Under the pieces are notes generated by a model. That model was not told where the DNA came from, did not search any database, and saw only the letters and a list, made by a program, of their open reading frames with translations. DNA of 64,000 nucleotides from Malacoraja senta (taxonomy: Eukaryota). The DNA is taken from assembly GCA_038087875.1 (NCBI GenBank), contig JAXLNO010004340.1, forward strand, positions 124,001-188,000, in the 5' to 3' direction. The translations under genes and the position numbers were made by a program. Shown in pieces: positions 14,350 to 64,000 of this stretch; the stretch's first letter is position 1; every line of letters begins with the position of its first letter.

Positions 14350-15750
14350 TCTGTGTTATGATGGAATTTTCGTGAGCTGCCATCTGGTACTACATTAAGT
14401 TTCCCTGGCAGATAGATAGCTCCAATCCAAATCTCTGTATCCCTACTCCAGGTCCAATTGTATTTGCCAACCTGTCACATGATAACGATTTGATTCCACC
14501 CATGTGATTCATATCAGCAACTGCTGTAGTGTTGTCTATTTTGCACTGCACATGCAAACTAGTTTAGTTAGTGCCATAAGCCTCGAGTCCATAAAATACT
14601 CTTGGTTAATTCCCCATGTTTGCAGAAGCAATGTTCATCTGTCTCCACCACTGAATCTTGTATCAGTAGCACCCTACCCAAGTGCTCTGACATCTGTCTG
14701 CAAATCATGGAAGCTTGGTCCAATAACACTTTGGAACTACTAGTGGACACATGCTGAATCCACCATTGTACATCAGCAACAGCCTCTATTGATAGAAGCA
14801 TAGGTCTATTATAATGACCCCAATGTATCCTCAATGCTTGTTCCTTTGACCTTTGTAATTGTAGATAATAAAGTGGCCATATTGAACTGCTGGAAATGCT
14901 GCCAGCCATTACCACAGCAGACTTGTCACCTGGCTAATTGAAGGCTGTGTGTTAGCAATTAACTTGATATAGCTCTTAATTAGCTCTACCCTTTTTTGCC
15001 TGGGCAAGGTCACAATGATGTTGATTAAGTCCATTGTGAACCCAACTAGTCAATTTGTGTAACAGGTATAATTTTAGATTTCTCTGGATAGCTTATAAAG
15101 CCCAATTAAAAAATGTTTTTTACCAACAGCCACTGATGCTTCAGCTGTTTCCTTTGATTGTCCTACAATCAAGATATTATCTAGTTAAGCCATGAACACA
15201 TGACCTTAACTTCTCATCATGCCTAGAATAGGTTTTAACAACTTTGTAATCCCTCTAGGAGCTGAAGAGAAACCATTAGGCAGTGGATTGTATTGGCATA
15301 ATTGCCCCATCCAGCTGAATTTTAAATCTTCTATCCTGCAAATGAACAGACACTGAATCCGCATCTTTAAGATCTCCTTCACAAACGTTTATATCTTAAA
15401 ATGTCTATACCGTACAAAAGGGTTAAGACTATTCAGGTCTGTATAATTCTGCAACCCCCCATCCTTTTTTGGTCTGGGAAAGATATTGGACACAAACTGA
15501 TGGCTTTGGTAAACTGCCTTAGCAATTACACCTTTATTACATAAGCTTGCAAGTTCCAGCTGAACTTCCAATTGTTCAGTGATACTGAAGTCAAACTCCT
15601 TTTTTGGAACATGTTGCATGGGTAAATCAGAATTTGCATTAAGCTTTATTTGATGCCCTTGAATAACCTTCAGTATAAACATATCTGAGGTAAACATTTA
15701 ATTGTATCACATTAGATCTGTCTACATGAGAACCAGACCCTCTTACCTCC
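14350..15750 (-). pseudogene. DIRS reverse transcriptase / RNase H (multiple frameshifts)
   Basis: FTSDMFILKVIQGHQI; FVSNIFPRPKKDGG; LNPFVRYRHFKI; LPNGFSSAPR; LYYLQLQR..DVQWW. Confidence 0.85.
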
Positions 15751-15799
15751 TTACCACCTGGCATTCTTCCCCGGCCTTGAGCTGGATATCTCACCTCCG

Positions 15800-16730
15800 T
15801 GGCGGTGCTACAGCCGAATGCCAACTGCGCTGCATCGTAGCTGGACTCGTCCCTTGCCCGGACCAGTCTGCACCCTTATAGGGATACTTCCGCTTTGGTG
15901 AATATGTGGCTGCCGTCTTAGCCTCCTCCTCCAGCTCCTTCACCTGCCGTGCGAAATCCTCGCCAAACAGCTGTGCCGGTTGCACTGTGCCAGGGTGGCA
16001 GAGTGAAGCATATTTAGCATTGATGGTTGGTCTAATCGCATCTTGCGGAGGCAGTTGATCTCAAAGTGGGCACTCCACAATAGCGCCTTTTGTTGTAATT
16101 TGTCATGGCCTCTCCATCTACCATCCTGGCAAAGCTCGTTATACCAGATGCCAGCAACTTTAAAAATATGCTGGAGCTTCACATGATCCTGGGCTTTCAT
16201 TAGTATGCCCATCTTGCCCCAATTCTTCCTGTTCCCAACAGGAACTTTTAACAGTCCACAGTTGATTGGGGCTTCATACTTCGTTACTGTCTCATCCATT
16301 GTCAGCTCCTGTAGCTGATGTGAGACTTGGTAATTTATGCTGGTGGCAAGTTCCTCACCCAGAGCCTCACCAGCGTCCGACGACATGGCAAACCGTGCGG
16401 CACACGGTGTTAGCTCTGGCAGCTGCCTGCCCTCCCTTTGGAAGTCGTCGGACTCAGGGTCAGAGCGTATCTGCCCTTCTGCACTCACCTCTTGCAAAGA
16501 GGGTGCTTTCAAGCAGGCCTCTACTAGGCACTGCCAGCGGAGCCGTCCCCACGGCCTCCCGCCTGCACAACTCCTCCTGGAGTATGGCTTTATGAAGCAG
16601 ACCTCTCCTAGGCACTGCCAGCGGAGCCTTCCCTAAGGCTTCCCGCCTGCACAACTCCTCCTGGAGTATGGCTTTATGAAGCAGACCTCTCCTAGGCACT
16701 GCCAGCGGAGCCTTCTCTGTGGCTTCCCTC
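15800..16730 (-). pseudogene. DIRS gag-like ORF1 (frameshifted)
   Basis: KYEAPINCGLLKVP...WGKM...KAQD..KLQ and LFGEDFARQVKEL, both typical of DIRS ORF1. Confidence 0.7.
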
Positions 16731-16750
16731 CTGCATTACTCCCCTGGAGC
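16517..16750. repeat. 84-bp tandem repeat, ~2.7 copies
   Basis: taggcactgccagcggagcc recurs at 16525, 16609 and 16693. Confidence 0.95.
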
Positions 16751-18739
16751 GTCTCTGTGGAGCAGCCCCTGTATGAGCTGCTCCTTTTGGATAACCGCTG
16801 GGGAACGGTATCCTGTCCCCGACGGGACTCTCGTGGCCCGACTCTGCGGAGTCTATAGCCCTGACAGACTTGGCTTATGCCGACCGCCCGACTGGCTTTG
16901 GCTGTGTACCCGGCTGGGCACTTTGCCAAGTCTGTCGCCGCACCGCTACCGGCTTGCGACTCCCCCGAGGTGACAGGCTGCCTTTCAGAGACTGCGTCCC
17001 GCAGCTCTCTCTCTCCTTGTCGGCAGCAGCCTGCACCTTTTCCTTGTTCCTGTATGTGGGGGAAAAAACACACAGAAACACTTTCTTTACTTTTCTCTAA
17101 CTCCTCCAAAGTCTCCCCGACTTTGGTGGAGCTGTAATTACTCACCTGCAGCAAGAGCTCCGTGCTCCCGCTGCCGTTCGCACCAATGCGTCAGACGTAA
17201 TGACGCGCATGCGCCCTGACGGGGTTCTTCACGTAGTCACTCACGTGACTCCGAAGTAAAATAACAGATAAAGTGCAATGGGCTATTTAACGATCAGAGT
17301 TTTGTTTGAGTTGAGTTTAATAGCCTGATGGCTGTGGGGAAGTAGCTATTCCTGAACCTGGATGTTGCAGATTTCAGGCTCCTGTACCTTCTACCTGAAG
17401 GCAGTGGGGAGATGAGTGAGTGGCTAGGATGGTATGGGTCTTTGATGATGCTGGCAGCCTTTTGAGGCAACGACTGCGATAGATCCCCTTGATGGTGGGG
17501 AGGTCAGAGCCGATGATGGACTGGGCAGTGTTTACAACTTTTTGCAATCTTTTACGCTCCTGGGCACACAAGTTGCCGAACCAAGCCACGATGCAACCGG
17601 TCAGCATGCTCTCTACTGTGCACCTGTAGAAGTTCGAGAGAGACCTCCTTGACATACCGACTAACGTAATCTTCTCAGGAAGTAGAGGCGCTGATGTGCT
17701 TTCTTTATAATTGCATCTGTGTTCTCGGACCAGGAGAGATCTTCAGAGATATGCACGCCCAGGAATTTGAAGCTCTTGACCCTCTTCACCATCGACCCGT
17801 TGATATAAGCGGGACTATGGGTCCCCATACTACCCCTTCCAAAGTCCACAATCAGTTCTTTGGTTTTGCTGGTGTTGAGAGCCAGGTTATTGTTGTTAAA
17901 GTGCTGGAGTAACTCAGCAGGTCAGGCAGCACCTCTTGAGGACAAGATGCTGCCTGACCCTGATTAGTATGGGTGTCAGAGGTTGTGGGGAGAAGGCAGG
18001 TGAATGGGGTTTGGAGGGAGAGATAGATCAGCCATGATTGAATGACGGAGTAGACATAATGGGCCAAATAGCCTAATTCTAAGATTGCTTATGATCTAAT
18101 GACCTTATGATCCCGTTGGTTTATTCTGGCATGTTGTGTTTTGGTTTTGCTTATGAGAAATGAACCCTCAAACTTGACTTGGCTACACTGCCAGTCTCAG
18201 CATTGGTTCCATCGACACTTGAGATTTTATGTTTAATCTGCAGGGGGGAAAAAAATACTTCAAAGTACACGGAACAGCAGCAAAACCCTCATTGCTATGA
18301 ACGAGTTAGTGAGGTAATTTTCATTGGGCATGCATTCCACGTCTCCCAGTTCCTCACTAGTAATGCAGTTAACATAAATGGCATTAATTCTTCTGATAAT
18401 ATGTTTTTGGCACTCTTACAAATACCAAGGAATTACTTAGATTTTTTTTCCAATGGGAGACTATATTTGTGGGCCGATTTTCAATAAAAAAAACCCCAAT
18501 TTCACAGGAACAGTTAGTTTCGGGTTAAAAGGTACTTAGCAGGAGTATCAAGTTATAGTTAGGGTGAGAGAACTGAAAAATCGGTCTTGTGTTTCACACG
18601 TTAAGGCAGTTAAAAATGATGTGTTACTAGATCTTAAGATTCTGAAGTGTTATAAAATGAAAGCACAGTTACAAAGAATGGAACGGAAAAACTGTAAAGA
18701 TACATTAGTCTAGTAGAGAACCTTGGTTGGAGAGACAAG

Positions 18740-57569: not shown

Positions 57570-58458
57570 CTGCAAAGTTCTTTGACAGCAATGAGTTATC
57601 AAAAGGGCGTCAAGGAGGATCAGGGGTGGCCTCAGTGAGACCTCGTTGTCTCTTGCAGCTTGCTCTGCCCAATGACACAGCAATGGTAACCAGGCCATAA
57701 GATTGATTGAGGAATTCAAAAGGTGGTTAACAGCTGGTGAGCGCAGGCAACAAGCCAGATTAAACACAAGGAAAGATACAAAAATGCTGGAGTAATTTAG
57801 CAGGTCAGGCAGAACCTGGAGAACAGGGATAGGTGATGTTTCAGGATCTTTCTTCAGTCTGCTTCCACAGATCAAACACAATCTGTCCAATTATTACAAG
57901 AATTGTAATGTAGATCTGCTGGTTTGCATATGATGGGCCTAATGGCCATCTATGTGTCTTTATTTTTCTGTGATTTTTCTATGATGGTTTGGGAATGTGG
58001 GATTGATGCGCTGGTATAACGCATAGTGATTCCGCTTTGATTTGATTGGAGCTTGAGGTTATGCTACTTTCAACCATTAGCTAATAGGTGTTATTGGTTT
58101 GCTGTCCTCATCTTGGCCTTCAAAGCACATTTGGTCACTGAAGAAACCAATGCCAGTGTTGAATGAGTGTGTACGAAGGAACTGCAGATAGACACAAAAA
58201 GCTGGAGTAACTCAGCTGGACAGGCAGCATCTCTGAAGAGAAGGAATGGGTGACGTTTTGGATTGAGACTCTTCTTCAGACTGAGTATCTGATGAAAAAA
58301 CCTGCTTATTTCCAGCACCTTGCCACTGCTCATGGACAAATCTATCGGCAATCAATTACTCTTTTGATACAGAGGTAAAAAGAGAAAAAAGTGAAAAGAT
58401 AGAAAGAGAAATAAGGAAGGCATCTAAACACCAAGGATGAGTGTCGAAAAAAAGATTA

Positions 58459-58675
58459 AGGGCCTGTCCCACTTTCACGACCTAATTCACAACCTCTGCC
58501 GAGTTTGCCCTTGACTCATACTCGCAGCATGGACGTCATGAGGTCGTAGGTAGGTCGTAGCAGGCCGTGAAGCTACTCGTGGCATCAAGTAGGTCGGGGC
58601 GATTGTTTAGCATGATGAAAAATGTCCACGAGTAAAAAAGGTCGTGAATTAGGTCGTGAAAGTGGGACAGGCCCT
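58459..58675. mobile_element. PIF/Harbinger-type MITE
   Basis: TIR agggcctgtcccactttcacgacctaattcac; TSD TTA; same outer 14 bp as 36119-36435. Confidence 0.9.
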
Positions 58676-59062
58676 TTACAAATTCAAACAATGCCACTTT
58701 GAGAAGCATCTGTGAAGTAAACCTTTGTTTTTTTTAATAATTAACTTGAAAACTCACATCATCACATACATCCTTGCATATTCAGTTTGATGAAAAAAGA
58801 TGAAACAGAATGAAACTAGGAATCTTGGTTGTGTTCATTATGTCCAAATAATACAAAGCATCACTCAACCAAGGAAATGGAGATGTGCATCTATATGGCA
58901 TCTTGCTCTCATATTCATCATAAAATTCATAGATCTTGTCACTGTTGGGCATAAAGCAAAGCTCGTAAGTTAAACTCAGCATGATCCCAAACCTGTGTGG
59001 CCCATCCTTGAGCTGTGGCCAACTAAAACATGCCACATTGGTCGTCTGTCATTGTAGTCTCA

Positions 59063-59361
59063 TGGGCAGCTCAGTGATGCAGCTGGTTGAGCTGCTGCCT
59101 CACAGCTCCAAAAACCTTGGTTCGATCCTGACCTCGGGTGCTGTCGGTGTGGGGTTTTCATGTTTTATCTGTGAGCGCGTGGGTTTCCTCCGGTTTCCTC
59201 CCACATCCCAAGGATGTGCAGGTTAATTGGCTTCCATAAATTGCCCCTAGTAAGTAGGGAGTGGATGGGATAGCATTGAACTGATCTGGACAGATGGTCG
59301 GCTTGGCTCGGTGGGCTAAAGGGCCTGTTTCCATGCTGTATCTCCAAACAAACTAAACTAA
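59063..59361 (+). mobile_element. V-SINE (HE1-like)
   Basis: Head, V-domain, tail. Confidence 0.85.
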
Positions 59362-61021
59362 CCTTGTGTAACTTCACCTTACCTGGTTGATTCTAAACTG
59401 GATGATTTTGATATGGATGCAATCTGCAGATTATTTTTCATCTGCCCTTGCAGGGAGGTTCAGTTGCCTAGACTGCCTATGCTGATTTCACCTTTCTGTT
59501 CACCTCTCAGTTGTTAGGCTAAAGTTAAAGTAATATGAGAATAGAGAGGGGTAAATTATGAAGGCAGCTCATGTAGACTAAGCTTCTATTTAGTTTGTGT
59601 GATCAAAGTGTGGAGTTTAACATTAAGAGCTGAACAGGGGAATTATTTCCTTTGGCGAGGGTAGCGCTTTGTAACTTACCCTCATAATATTGTTGATGTG
59701 AAAAATTGGAAAATTCAAAGTCAAGAATTATGGCAGCCTGCTCAGGCAAGGGTCTTCAGGTACAATGAGTCAAAGGAGATGAATGGAGTTTAGATACAAA
59801 TCAGATGTGAATTAATTGAATGATGCAAGAGGCTTGAGGAATCAAATGGCTTATCCATGTTCCAATCTTCCTTTAAAAGTTGAATATAGATCAATACAGA
59901 TCCTTATCCGGCTGATTTGTGCTCTGGTCTGATGACACCTTGAGTATTATACCCAGTTCTATTTCGATTTAAACATTGGACACAGTGAAATTGAGGCTGA
60001 AACCCCTAAAGAAACCTTTTGAGCCAGAAGATAAAATTGGAAAATATTTTCTGGTAAAGACAGGTTATATTTTCAAGTGACTAAGCATATTAGATTGTGT
60101 TGGAAGGAACTCAATGAGTCAGGTAGCATCTCTGGAGAAAAGGAATCGGTGACGCTTTGTGACAAGACCCTTCTTCAGACTGAAAGTCGGGGAGAGGGAA
60201 ACTGTAGATATGAAGAGGTATATTAGATTGCCTGGGGTTCCGACACATTGAACAATTGGATGCTGGAGGTTTGTGTGTGGTGAGGGAGAGTTGCTGGCTT
60301 CCATGTTCCTTGGGGAACCTACTAATGTAAAGAAGTTCAAAGGGCTTGTAGGCTCATAATATGTTTGCCTTCTTATTTCTTCTCATTATCCTGCTCTCAG
60401 TAAAACCAAAGTGCCTTGGTGCCAGAATAAAAATATCTTCTCTGATGCCTCCAGTTTCAATATTTTGCAGGATTTTTTTTTGGTCTGCTTTTCCTGCATC
60501 TTGTGTTCTGGCCCATTTGTTTCTTCATCCTGTACTCACAACACCACACACCCACTACTGGTACTTGCTACTTCTCTCCTACACTGTCTCTCGCTCTCTC
60601 CAAATGGTGTGTGATGTACTGCAAGTCACGATCACACCGAGCCATGCAAGAACACCGCATAATGATCTTTGTTAAAAAGTAAGATAGTTGGAGGAGTGAA
60701 AGATTTATTTTGAAGCATTTCTGTTAGTTATTGGTCCAGTAGTAATACCATTTATCGAGAACAACTGCATCAATATATTCATCTTTATCCAATTATCCTT
60801 CATTTACTCTTCATCTGCCTATATATTTCCAGCTGACCTATTATTTTCTTTCATGTATTCATTACTGAATGAAACCATTCAGGTTTTATATGTTTTATCA
60901 TCCTGCAGCAGAAGGTATTTTATAATCATAGTTCCCTCATTCCGCCAGTGAGAGTAATCCCATTATTACTCATCAACAAAACCTTCACCCTGCAATAGAG
61001 AAAAAGAGGTGGGCATTGTCC

Positions 61022-61651
61022 TGTTAGAATTGTTGTGGTTCAGTACTCTTAAACGGACAAAAACGCAAATAAAATCAGTGATCAAGCAGTACAATCTTTA
61101 TTTCGCCAGGTGGGTGTGGTAAAACTCTTAACAGTATGCAGATTACAGACTATACAGAGTTCTCATCCCCACACAAAGGGACAGTGATCTCAGGACATGT
61201 ATATATACCCCAATAATTGATGATTCAGCAATACCTTATCTACAAAGCATAGTACAGCCTCTTGCTTCTTAAGATTGACAGATCCTTAAGATTGACAGCT
61301 TCTTAAGATTGACAGGTTCTTCTGACAGAGGAAGGGTTAGCCATATATGGTTATATGAGAAGGCTATATTTCTGCAGAACAAGCATTTTGGTTTTTCTAC
61401 TTTTGACGCACATTATAATCTTATAATCTGAATTCTCTCTCAATGTTTATATTATAGAGGAGACATTCATGAAGCTGTGCTTGTTATCTCGCTTATGTTA
61501 TTGGAAAGGGAACATCAACTTTTTTCTAGCTTTGTTACTGAAAGCCAAGATTAGTGCATTTCGCTGGGTTTGCAATTTAATAGGAGAAGGTGGCAGCTTC
61601 TTAATTTCAGCTGAATCCATTTTGTAAGTTTAAATCTTTTTAACTTCAACG
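61022..61651 (-). mobile_element. Probable solo LTR
   Basis: tgtt...aac(g) termini; minus-strand AATAAA at ~61097-61102; TATA-like run at ~61200; three tandem cttaagattgacag at ~61269-61315. No clean TSD found. Confidence 0.55.
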
Positions 61652-61704
61652 GAATAAGGTAAGAAAAATTCCCGGCTATGCAATATATTAGCGAAAAGTC
61701 CTTG

Positions 61705-62245
61705 GGACGTACCTATAGAAAGGAAATGAGGAAGAATTTCTTTAGTCAGAGGGTGGTGAACCTGTAGAATTCATTTAGAATGGAGATAAGGAAACACTTT
61801 TTCTCACAGAGAGTTGTGAGTCTGTGGAATTCTCTGCCTCAAAGGGCGGTGGAGGCCGGTTCTCTGGATACTTTCAAGAGAGAGCTAGATAGCGCTCTTA
61901 AAGATAGCAAAGTCAGGGGATATGGGGAGAAAGCAAGAACGGGGGATGATCAGCCATGATCACATTGAATGGTGGTGCTGGCTCGAAGGACTGAATGGCC
62001 TACTCCTGCACGTATTGTCTGTTGTCTATTGTTTATTGTCATTGTCACAGACAGCTGTGAAGGCCAAGTCATTTAGTATTTTTAAGGTGGATGACAGATT
62101 CTTGATTAGTACTGGTGTCAAGGGTTATGGGGAGAAGGCAGGAGAATGCGGTTGAGAGGGAAAGATAGATCAGCCATGACTGGATGCCGGAGTAGACCGA
62201 ATGGGCCGAATGGCCCAATTCTGCTTCTATGACATGAACTTATGA
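61705..62245 (+). mobile_element. CR1 3' fragment with a second CR1 subfamily (61776-62040) nested inside
   Basis: ...gaattcatt | insert ending attgtc | attgtcacagacagctgtg... Confidence 0.85.
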
Positions 62246-62469
62246 ATTGAATATAGGGTGGGGTTTTAAGAATTGGGGAATCCTCAAAATCCCTGATGAA
62301 TCCCAGCCAATCACTTACTGACTACCTCCCTCTTGAATGTGAGAGAACAAAGCCAGATGTTAATCCTAATATAATCCTACCCAGATCACCTTGTACCACT
62401 TACCCTCATGTCAACGCATTCTGTGTTCATATCTTATTCCCTCTTAATCTGAGGTGATCCTTCTCCGCA

Positions 62470-62755
62470 GTCTGCTATATTGTAGGAGGTGTTATCTTTC
62501 AATTGAGACACTGAACATTAGCTTCCTTAAATGGACAGAAAATATGTTGGGGTACAATTGATAAAGAAAAACAATGCTCATATCTAAGCAAGCATCCTTC
62601 CTCAATCCTCACCATGAATATATTTGGCATTTCCTTAATTTGCTGTTTGTGTGACCTTTGTTGCAGGCAGATTGGTTGCCACATTGTCAAAACAACATTG
62701 ACTTCTCTTCAAAAGTGATTTCATTGCCACAAAGTGCTATGAGATGCCACAAAGA
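62470..62755 (+). mobile_element. Decayed Deu-domain SINE (SacSINE1/AmnSINE1-like)
   Basis: ggaggtgttatctttcaattgagac...ttgctgtttgtgtgacc...attggttgcc...cttcaaaagtgatttcattg. Confidence 0.65.
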
Positions 62756-62756
62756 T

Positions 62757-63047
62757 GGGGCACAGCGATACGGTGGTAGAGTTGCTGCCTTACAGAGCCA
62801 AAGACCCAGGTTCGATCCTGACTATGAATGCCTTCTATATGAAGTTTGTACCTTCTCCCTGTGACCACCTGGGTTTTCTCCGGCATCTCTGGCTTCCACC
62901 CACACTCCAAAATATTCAGGTTTGTAGGTTAATTGGCTTTGGTAAGTTGTAGTATGTAGGACAGTGCTAGTGTATGGGGTGATAGCTGGTCAGTGTGGAC
63001 TCGGTGGGCCGAAGGGCCTGTTTCCACACTGTATCTCTAAAGTCTAA
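62757..63047 (+). mobile_element. V-SINE (HE1-like)
   Basis: Head, V-domain, tail. Confidence 0.85.
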
Positions 63048-64000
63048 AAATGGGAGAAATTGCAAGTTCTTTCCTTGTAAATCCATTGAATTGGAGGATA
63101 AAATGTGGTGATATCTTCTTAGAAATCTCCCTCCTCTTTCATATCTCCTGAAGACTTCCATTTGAGGGACAAGGTTACCCCTAAGTATGGTCTGGCTGAT
63201 GACAACCATATGGCAGCCAAATCTAGGGATAGCTTGTTTTGAAGTGAGGAAATGGGGAATGGAGAGAACTGCTAACTTGTGCAAGAAATTAATTCTGCAC
63301 ATATGCCCCTCATGTTAACTAGGAAACATGTTCAGTGAAAATACATAAGAATCCATGGTTGCCAATTGCCTGTATACATTTACATTCAGTGTTTGCCACT
63401 GTGTAAACTGGATGTGTTGTTTACATCAGTTTTATAGCCTTTGGAAAGTTGAACATTTTTCACAAATTGGATAAGTAATAGACCTATAGATTTCCCATTT
63501 GAGGTGCTCTTCACCCATTCAACTCCTGTCATGGGTCTAACAGATCAGGTGATCTATCCTCGTAAGTCAATCAGGTACAACAGTCCTGCAGAACTCTCCA
63601 TGGTCTAGTATCAAATTAACTTTACTATCTATTGCTTCCAGTGCTGTAACCAGTGTTAGTCCAGCTAACCTGAGAAATTGCTTTCCTCACTATAGCTCAT
63701 CTGTCAGACTGGTGTTTGATCTTGGTTTAACAAGTCCACTGCTTCTATGCCTAGCAGTTGATCAGTCTGAAGCCTCCCAAGCCTTGTATCTCTGTAAGAC
63801 AAGTCTAATCTCTGTAAAGCCATTGATATAGTAGCTGAATACATTTACTGCTGGCTCCCTTCTCCTTGAGCAGCTGAAGCTTCTGATCTCCTTCTGATCT
63901 CGCTGGTTTTGTTGCAGTGAATACTGGCTCTTTTTGTTCACCGTTCCTCATACTCACATAGTTTAGCATTGTTCCAATTTTTTTCTGACTATTGTGATTT

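What the first reader, a model, noticed from the sequence alone, without database searches (positions are those of the whole stretch)
58080..64000. Ancient retroviral pol fossil scattered between at least eight younger insertions
Reading only the gaps on the minus strand gives motifs in retroviral order: RDQKEIRSF..YYINGFTEI (RT thumb, ~63900-63805); KQFLRL...ALEAIDSKVNLIL and YRSITY (tether, cf. AF..LK..L..APAL and RPVAY, ~63690-63470); LHKLAVLSIPH...TILRG...MDLQGKNLQ (cf. PH.V...TI.RC...PDL.D.PL, 63290-63060); ANILHSREFF (cf. ANIYTDSRYAF, ~61690-61660); TGPITNRNA (cf. GN..AD, ~60740-60715); HCVQCLNRN (integrase CxxC, ~59990-59965); a frameshifted L.ID.YIQL (~59900-59880); CK...I.CRLH..HP...GKVK (cf. 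LH..YHPQSSGKVER, ~59450-59375); SWPQL...PHR..LS..YELCF (~59025-58955). A tether plus a separate RNase H is a Retroviridae feature, and IDYIQL suggests the epsilon/class-I group. Each motif alone is weak; the evidence is their order and spacing. An apparent Deu-SINE insertion inside it implies great age, so it may be a datable, very old chondrichthyan ERV.
Basis: partly seen in the sequence, partly recalled or inferred. Interest (0 to 1): 0.7.

Follow-up and report, generated by a model that had tools for sequence, protein, structure and literature searches.

The report
Faint ancient retrovirus fossil in skate
A heavily decayed stretch of skate DNA, broken up by younger jumping genes, is likely the dead remnant of an ancient retrovirus's reverse-transcriptase and integrase genes, and could be among the oldest such relics if it can be dated.

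Summary
The 'integrase' CxxC and ID.YIQL motifs are the antisense of an old CR1-type LINE; GKNLQ overlaps the end of an old SINE; nothing in 58600-61705 scores above chance. Standard searches (Pfam, PDB, phmmer, tblastn, HMM) find nothing. A frameshift- and insertion-aware profile alignment does find two faint collinear signals on the minus strand. Both fit class I retroviral profiles better than Gypsy. Tether, second RNase H, env and LTRs are not shown, so Retroviridae membership is likely, not proven. The locus is single-copy, shared by four other organisms at about 97% identity, and evolves without coding constraint. The old SINE abuts the integrase and is not shown to lie inside the element. 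The signal is near the detection limit and emerged after several analysis choices.

The parts
63060..63590 (-). Decayed integrase, zinc-finger region to catalytic core (likely); includes IPRFG at about 63230-63216; 6 stops in the 138 codons of the main frame, frameshifted after about 63195
   Evidence: Class I IN profile 1/1000 Markov, 0/754 reversed, 3/754 real nulls; all-IN profile 3/1000; pairwise BLASTP to P0080 22% over 145 columns, E 5e-4 for that one comparison, P0080 picked as one of the best of 130
63595..64000 (-). Unassigned middle stretch where tether and RNase H would lie; no signal. It runs on past the window end, and beyond it (L003:483-1924; G000:C4340:188483-189924) lies the likely decayed RT domain, profile positions 147-398, split by three younger insertions
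   Evidence: Middle: tether 440/500, RNase H 290/500, RNase H plus linker 122/500, Gypsy RNase H 226/500 nulls reach the observed score. RT: class I profile 0/1000 Markov, 1/392 reversed, 3/392 real nulls at d=0.25; Gypsy profile 331/1000
62343..62755 (-). Old SINE (Deu-type; name recalled), near full length, with its terminal piece at about 63058-63080 on the far side of a younger SINE; abuts the end of the integrase signal
   Evidence: nhmmer E 7e-14 with a profile of 31 own-genome loci; 279 of 381 aligned columns identical to copy L158
62755..63049 (+). Younger SINE inserted in the old SINE
   Evidence: best match 82%; its edge is also seen in two of four other organisms (loose ends)
61705..62250 (+). 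Three adjacent 3' fragments of CR1-type LINEs
   Evidence: 84-90% to other copies
61031..61650 (-). Solo LTR of an unrelated, younger family; ATTC on both sides (one base off on one side)
   Evidence: 519 candidates, 40 scored, near full-length copies elsewhere 83-93% identical with the same ends; flanks
59878..60000 (+).
59751..59873 (+). Old CR1-type LINE 3' end
   Evidence: 61-68% identity, best nhmmer E 2e-4
58166..60220 (.). Further short insertions: 58166-58290, 58456-58676 (palindromic), 59060-59367, 60087-60220; the tested gaps between them carry no pol signal

Best explanation
This is likely the dead remnant of one class I-like (gamma/epsilon-related) endogenous retrovirus pol gene, whose likely RT lies just beyond the window end and whose likely integrase lies at 63590-63060, now full of stops and frameshifts and cut by younger SINE and LINE insertions. 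Inferred history: a provirus entered the germ line of a skate ancestor and lost coding constraint. About half of the stretch between RT and integrase was then deleted or decayed beyond recognition (547 nt remain where about 390 profile positions, some 1,170 nt, are expected). SINEs and LINE pieces inserted later. Shown: stops, insertions, single copy, presence in four other organisms, even spread of substitutions over codon positions. Inferred: homology to pol, that RT and integrase are one element, the retroviral class, the age. It makes no protein; no function is indicated.
For: RT at the place and strand predicted before the DNA was seen: 0/1000 Markov, 1/392 reversed-genome nulls; 0-4 of 366-392 under standard and strict penalties, two masks, four decay settings. 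The alignment runs through profile positions 147-398 and resumes at the next position across all three insertions. Integrase: 1/1000 Markov, 0/754 reversed; 0/400 under standard and loose penalties. Whole chain (window numbering extended to 66110): 0/400 Markov, 0/202 reversed, 3/202 real; those 3 real segments read as genuine retroelement remains on inspection. The upstream signal holds when the integrase is kept fixed (2/150) or left out (1/150). The plus strand scores below the null mean. The Gypsy profile gives no RT signal (331-435/1000) and a lower IN score (8.8 against 11.0). Neutral decay: 14 stops in 330 codons; substitutions 7/6/7 by codon position among 20 listed sites.
Against: No standard search sees it: Pfam, no retroelement family in 18 and 11 frames at E<=10; PDB, no RT or RNase H; phmmer, 0 hits in 1.84e9 proteins; word search, 0 of 12 candidates; tblastn and single-frame HMM nothing. 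My first scoring scheme found no excess (z -1.3 to 1.3); the signal appeared only with composition-neutral scoring and after splitting the region and the profile, so the null counts are optimistic. The RT signal is lost under loose penalties (37-227 of 366-392) and the IN signal weakens under strict ones (2-10 of 400). The same DNA fits rival registers: thumb in some best paths, RT core 14/1000, and different references align incompatibly. Only 1 of 11 IN subfamily profiles reached about 1%. No tether, RNase H or downstream continuation.
Confidence: 0.62

Rival explanations
1. Chance: the gaps are unrecognisable old DNA and both signals are tail events picked out by repeated analysis.
For: All standard searches are blank; the first scoring scheme was blank; several incompatible registers look plausible by eye; results depend on penalties.
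Against: Two separate segments each at about 0.1-0.3% of nulls, in the right order and on the same strand, one at a predicted place; 0 of 202 reversed segments reach the chain score.
Confidence: 0.16
2. Real fossil of another LTR element: a Gypsy clade missing from my panel, a lokiretrovirus or Odin-like element, or a foamy-like/class III ERV; or RT and integrase come from two unrelated neighbours.
For: The Gypsy IN profile also scores (4/1000); the RT-IN gap is closer to a single-RNase H layout; the Gypsy panel had only 21 sequences and no loki, Odin or foamy sequences were knowingly held.
Against: RT scores with class I profiles and not with Gypsy; in pairwise tests the gamma-like panel has mean z 1.5 against 0.05 for Gypsy.
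Confidence: 0.19
3. One reading: thumb, tether, RNase H and integrase spread over 63900-58950.
For: The strings are present; RDQKEIRSF and 63611-63364 are placed as thumb in some best paths, and ANILHSREFF and TGPITNRNA appear in one path.
Against: Two integrase motifs are LINE antisense; 58600-61705 is at or below the null; tether register 385/1000; all four other organisms carry extra bases inside the RDQKEIRSF codons.
Confidence: 0.03

Closest known systems
Class I (gamma/epsilon-related) ERVs of this skate genome and of birds, reptiles and fish (L058, L059, L073 families; P0080 cluster)
   Same: RT then integrase on one strand; RT and IN score best on class I profiles; the clearest single integrase match is P0080, from a cluster that includes bird ERV proteins
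   Different: Only about 22% identical, no detectable DNA match to any sampled family, single copy, no tether, RNase H, env or LTR detectable
CmiERVs of the elephant shark (PMC4422223, part 1 of 2 of the text read)
   Same: Cartilaginous-fish ERVs, two of three lineages epsilon-related
   Different: Those have LTRs 2.4-3.3% apart and were dated to 54.5 and 75 My on an assumed rate; this one is far more decayed. Not compared by sequence.
Ancient TE protein fossils (PMC9004415, passages read)
   Same: Degraded protein-coding relics that BLAST-type searches miss
   Different: That study found pre-amniote Gypsy fossils but no pre-amniote ERV fossil in human, and its oldest fossils are conserved; this one shows no coding constraint
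Ty3/Gypsy, lokiretroviruses and Odin elements (PMC9040795, passages read)
   Same: RT-RNase H-IN order
   Different: The Gypsy profile does not detect the RT. Loki and Odin also have a dual RNase H, so tether plus RNase H is not unique to Retroviridae; they were not in my panel.

Membership tests
Retroviridae, class I ERV | RT closer to class I retroviruses than to Gypsy | tested here: met
   0/1000 against 331/1000 nulls at d=0.25; faint, penalty-dependent, limited outgroup panel
Retroviridae, class I ERV | Integrase downstream of RT on the same strand | tested here: met
   63590-63060, 1/1000 Markov and 0/754 reversed; Gypsy IN profile also scores 4/1000
Retroviridae, class I ERV | Tether plus separate RNase H | tested here: inconclusive
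   No signal for either in 547 nt; about half the expected length is missing
Retroviridae, class I ERV | env downstream of pol | tested here: inconclusive
   Only Pfam scans of some downstream gaps, blank; no env profile was run
Retroviridae, class I ERV | gag and protease upstream | tested here: inconclusive
   tblastn with own-genome ORFs over 56001-68000 showed no such hit in the part of the output that was displayed; best path upstream of RT has only low-scoring blocks
Retroviridae, class I ERV | Paired LTRs, primer-binding site, target-site duplication | not tested
   Ends of the element are unknown; the solo LTR at 61031-61650 is a younger, separate insertion
Epsilon-like subgroup | IDYIQL-type integrase motif; best fit to epsilon-like references | tested here: not met
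   Motif is LINE antisense; epsilon-like panel mean z 0.06 in pairwise tests
Ty3/Gypsy | RT fits the Gypsy profile; single RNase H | tested here: not met
   RT 331-435/1000; RNase H 226/500; panel of 21 sequences only
Lokiretrovirus, Odin, foamy-like or class III ERV | RT/IN placement with those lineages | not tested
CR1-type LINE (59878-60000) | Match to ORF2 C-terminal region of own-genome LINE copies | tested here: met
   the name CR1 is recalled

The most novel reading that the evidence does not exclude
A single-copy retroviral insertion well over 100 million years old, possibly predating the split of skates from other batoids or sharks: a locus-level fossil older than the roughly 100 My orthologous ERVs that PMC5512871 (2017) called the oldest known, and a sign that slowly evolving cartilaginous-fish genomes hold a layer of such ERVs below the reach of BLAST and HMMER.
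Probability: 0.35. Interest if true: 0.68.

Novelty: new member of a known kind. Interest (0 to 1): 0.4.

Why it matters
The early history of retroviruses rests mostly on co-speciation inference; direct, locus-level fossils are scarce beyond about 100 My (PMC5512871, passages), and a sensitive survey found no pre-amniote ERV fossil in human (PMC9004415, passages). A datable ERV insertion shared across batoids or sharks would be a hard minimum age for class I retroviruses in cartilaginous fish. As it stands the locus is undated, inert and at the limit of detection. It is also a clear example of how motif chains read by eye can be mostly wrong in register while pointing at a real relic.

Tried and rejected
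Pfam on 18 window frames and 11 further frames: no retroelement family. PDB phmmer: only leucine-rich-repeat proteins, E>=0.012. phmmer on 1.84e9 representatives: 0. Word-based homologue search with the integrase frame: 0 of 12 candidates at E<=10. tblastn with own-genome ERV/Gypsy ORFs and single-frame hmmsearch: nothing on the minus strand of 57-70 kb above 0 bits. Own-genome DNA and protein searches: only the locus and its C9 twin, plus one E=3.4 match. Rfam: nothing at a gathering score. The shuffle null and the power test were discarded because CpG content biased them. The corrected power test (Gypsy decay, leave-family-out profile) detects 20/20 at d=0.3, 17/20 at 0.4 and 6/20 at 0.5 with all pieces kept, and 14/20, 6/20 and 3/20 with half kept. 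My by-eye idea that the integrase continues through 62343-62250, 61705-61651 and 61030-60700 was rejected. No RNA holder listed. No language-model look-alike search was obtained for the integrase frame, so that check is open. The larger insertions were not compared across species. Two look-ups of earlier findings returned nothing. Papers PMC9604959 and PMC13568524 (passages) held nothing relevant.
Full report
Setting. The window is G000:C4340:124001-188000 of a 1.94 Gb genome. Own-genome ERV proteins are 93-96% identical to proteins labelled Leucoraja erinacea and Amblyraja radiata, so the host is a skate or close relative. The neighbourhood has a 98-100% identical twin on C9, probably a second haplotype; no other copy of 63050-64000 was found by DNA or protein search. 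Coordinates above 64000 extend the window numbering along the contig (L003 position plus 64000).

Observation. All 17 quoted strings are present. Twelve insertions were mapped in 58080-64000 against 0.4-0.7 Mb of own-genome DNA and by genome search. They include a solo LTR at 61031-61650 (519 candidates, 40 scored) and an old SINE at 62343-62755 (E 7e-14; 279 of 381 columns identical to L158). The names CR1, Deu-type and DIRS are recalled, not from a call; PMC4824008 (passages) lists a shark DeuSINE, SacSINE1.

The CxxC and ID.YIQL motifs sit on the opposite strand of an old LINE ORF2 fragment at 59878-60000 (tblastn 50% over 28 aa, E 4e-4; blastn 64% over 122 nt; nhmmer E 8e-4). GKNLQ overlaps the terminal piece of the old SINE, separated from its body by a younger SINE. 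With ERV profiles, 58600-61705 scores at or below the null (109-146 of 150), as do its three main gaps taken singly. The tether reading of 63060-63620 is at chance (385 of 1000). All four other organisms laid have extra bases inside the RDQKEIRSF codons.

Standard tools are blank: Pfam, PDB, phmmer over 1.84e9 proteins, the word-based search, tblastn (output of 15 partly cut) and single-frame hmmsearch with gamma-like (49 sequences), epsilon-like (67) and Gypsy (21) profiles. The same profiles do find a Gypsy integrase at 71272-71694 (50.9 bits) and RT pieces at 15110-15970.

Sensitive test. I wrote a profile-to-DNA alignment that allows frameshifts, skips masked insertions and scores codons under neutral decay. 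With genome-background odds it found no excess (z -1.3 to 1.3 over 18 settings and 24). That scoring was sensitive to CpG content, so I made it composition-neutral. The whole region then reached 3 of 100 for both ERV profiles and 51 of 100 for Gypsy. Splitting into five regions placed the excess in 63079-64075 and 64075-66100. These choices were made after seeing data, so the counts below are optimistic.

Integrase, 63590-63060. Of 130 single references, P0020 (z 10.7) and P0080 (z 6.4) scored best; the largest null value over all queries was 5.4. Their alignments disagree in part, but P0080 gives a compact chain from the zinc-finger region to IPRFG (BLASTP 22% over 145 columns, E 5e-4 for the single comparison). 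A profile of 202 integrases gives 3 of 1000 Markov and 2 of 416 real nulls; 1 of 11 subfamily profiles came near that. The class I IN profile on 63060-63620 gives 1 of 1000 Markov, 0 of 754 reversed and 3 of 754 real; Gypsy IN gives 4 of 1000 and an RT-core register 14 of 1000. It holds under standard and loose penalties (0 of 400) and weakens under strict ones (2-10 of 400). No continuation past the old SINE is supported (283 and 293 of 300).

RT, 65924-64483, beyond the window. The upstream stretch alone scores 1 of 150, 2 of 200 Markov and 8 of 370 real. The RT part of the merged class I profile gives 0 of 1000 Markov, 3 of 392 real and 1 of 392 reversed at d=0.25 (7, 4 and 6 at d=0.1). The two sub-panels give 7-90 of 1000 and Gypsy 331-435 of 1000. 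The best path covers profile positions 147-398 and resumes at the next position across each of three insertions (64917-65212, 65400-65592, 65650-65775). The signal stays at 0-4 of 366-392 under standard and strict penalties with two masks, and is lost under loose penalties (37-227). The core 64420-64915 alone is weaker (12-28 of 300). The whole chain 63060-66110 scores 17.3 against 0 of 400 Markov, 0 of 202 reversed and 3 of 202 real segments; those three read as genuine retroelement remains.

Middle. The 547 unmasked nt between RT and integrase match neither tether, retroviral RNase H nor Gypsy RNase H (122-440 of 500), where about 390 profile positions are expected. The dual-RNase H argument is therefore not shown, and PMC9040795 (passages) reports that lokiretroviruses and Odin elements share that feature anyway.

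Decay, distribution and age. There are 14 stops in 330 codons of four aligned frames (4.2%); my model expects 3.0% at d=0.3 and 4.0% at d=0.5, with a background of 5.3%. The power test puts the detection limit at about d=0.4-0.5, consistent with a signal this faint. Twenty listed runs from 8 organism labels and 8 studies hold part of 63060-64000. I laid 4 of them (organisms E, F, G, H): each has one contig across the whole 946 nt, with 26-28 substitutions and 25-35 gap bases, including lengths not divisible by three. Twenty listed substitutions in the integrase frame fall 7/6/7 on the codon positions (11 of 51 rows not shown), so there is no sign of coding constraint. The three insertions inside RT are 79-87% identical to their best sampled copies. 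No measured skate rate was available; PMC4422223 (part 1 of 2 read) assumed 2.2e-10 per site per year for elephant shark, and even at a fivefold higher rate (my assumption) the older nested insertions would be of the order of 100 My old. The old SINE touches the integrase end but is not shown to be inside the element, so it does not date it.

Comparison and novelty. It works like nothing now; it is likely a dead class I-like provirus fragment. Cartilaginous-fish ERVs are well known (PMC4422223; search listing). PMC5512871 (passages) gives about 100 My for the oldest orthologous ERVs as of 2017, and PMC9004415 (passages) found no pre-amniote ERV fossil in human. Six literature searches listed no report of this locus, but they were general, the library is partial and no supplements were read.

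Noticed in passing
L003:7272-7694 (+), 7 kb beyond the window end: Decayed Gypsy-type integrase fragment, 50.9 bits on the Gypsy profile; used as a positive control.
   Followed up: partly
window 15110-15970 (-), with ORFs at 15940-17190 and an 84-bp tandem repeat at 16511-16749: Decayed RT fragments (11.9 bits, E 0.003; forward score 42.7), DIRS-like by recalled motif, next to a GC-rich stretch. A similar RT start lies in L136.
   Followed up: partly
G000:C4340 against C9:19164383-19194382: The compared 30 kb neighbourhood occurs twice at 98-100% identity with one length difference of about 210 nt: probably an uncollapsed haplotype.
   Followed up: partly
window 61031-61650: Solo LTR of a family with hundreds of candidates in the genome; its internal region was not looked for.
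   Followed up: no
window 63089-63535: Cross-species substitutions are uneven: 20 of 40 listed sites in 63089-63273 (185 nt) but 4 in 63274-63535 (262 nt); 11 rows were not shown. Chance or local constraint.
   Followed up: no
genome-wide: At least three class I ERV families and one Gypsy family with long open pol frames are present in many copies.
   Followed up: partly
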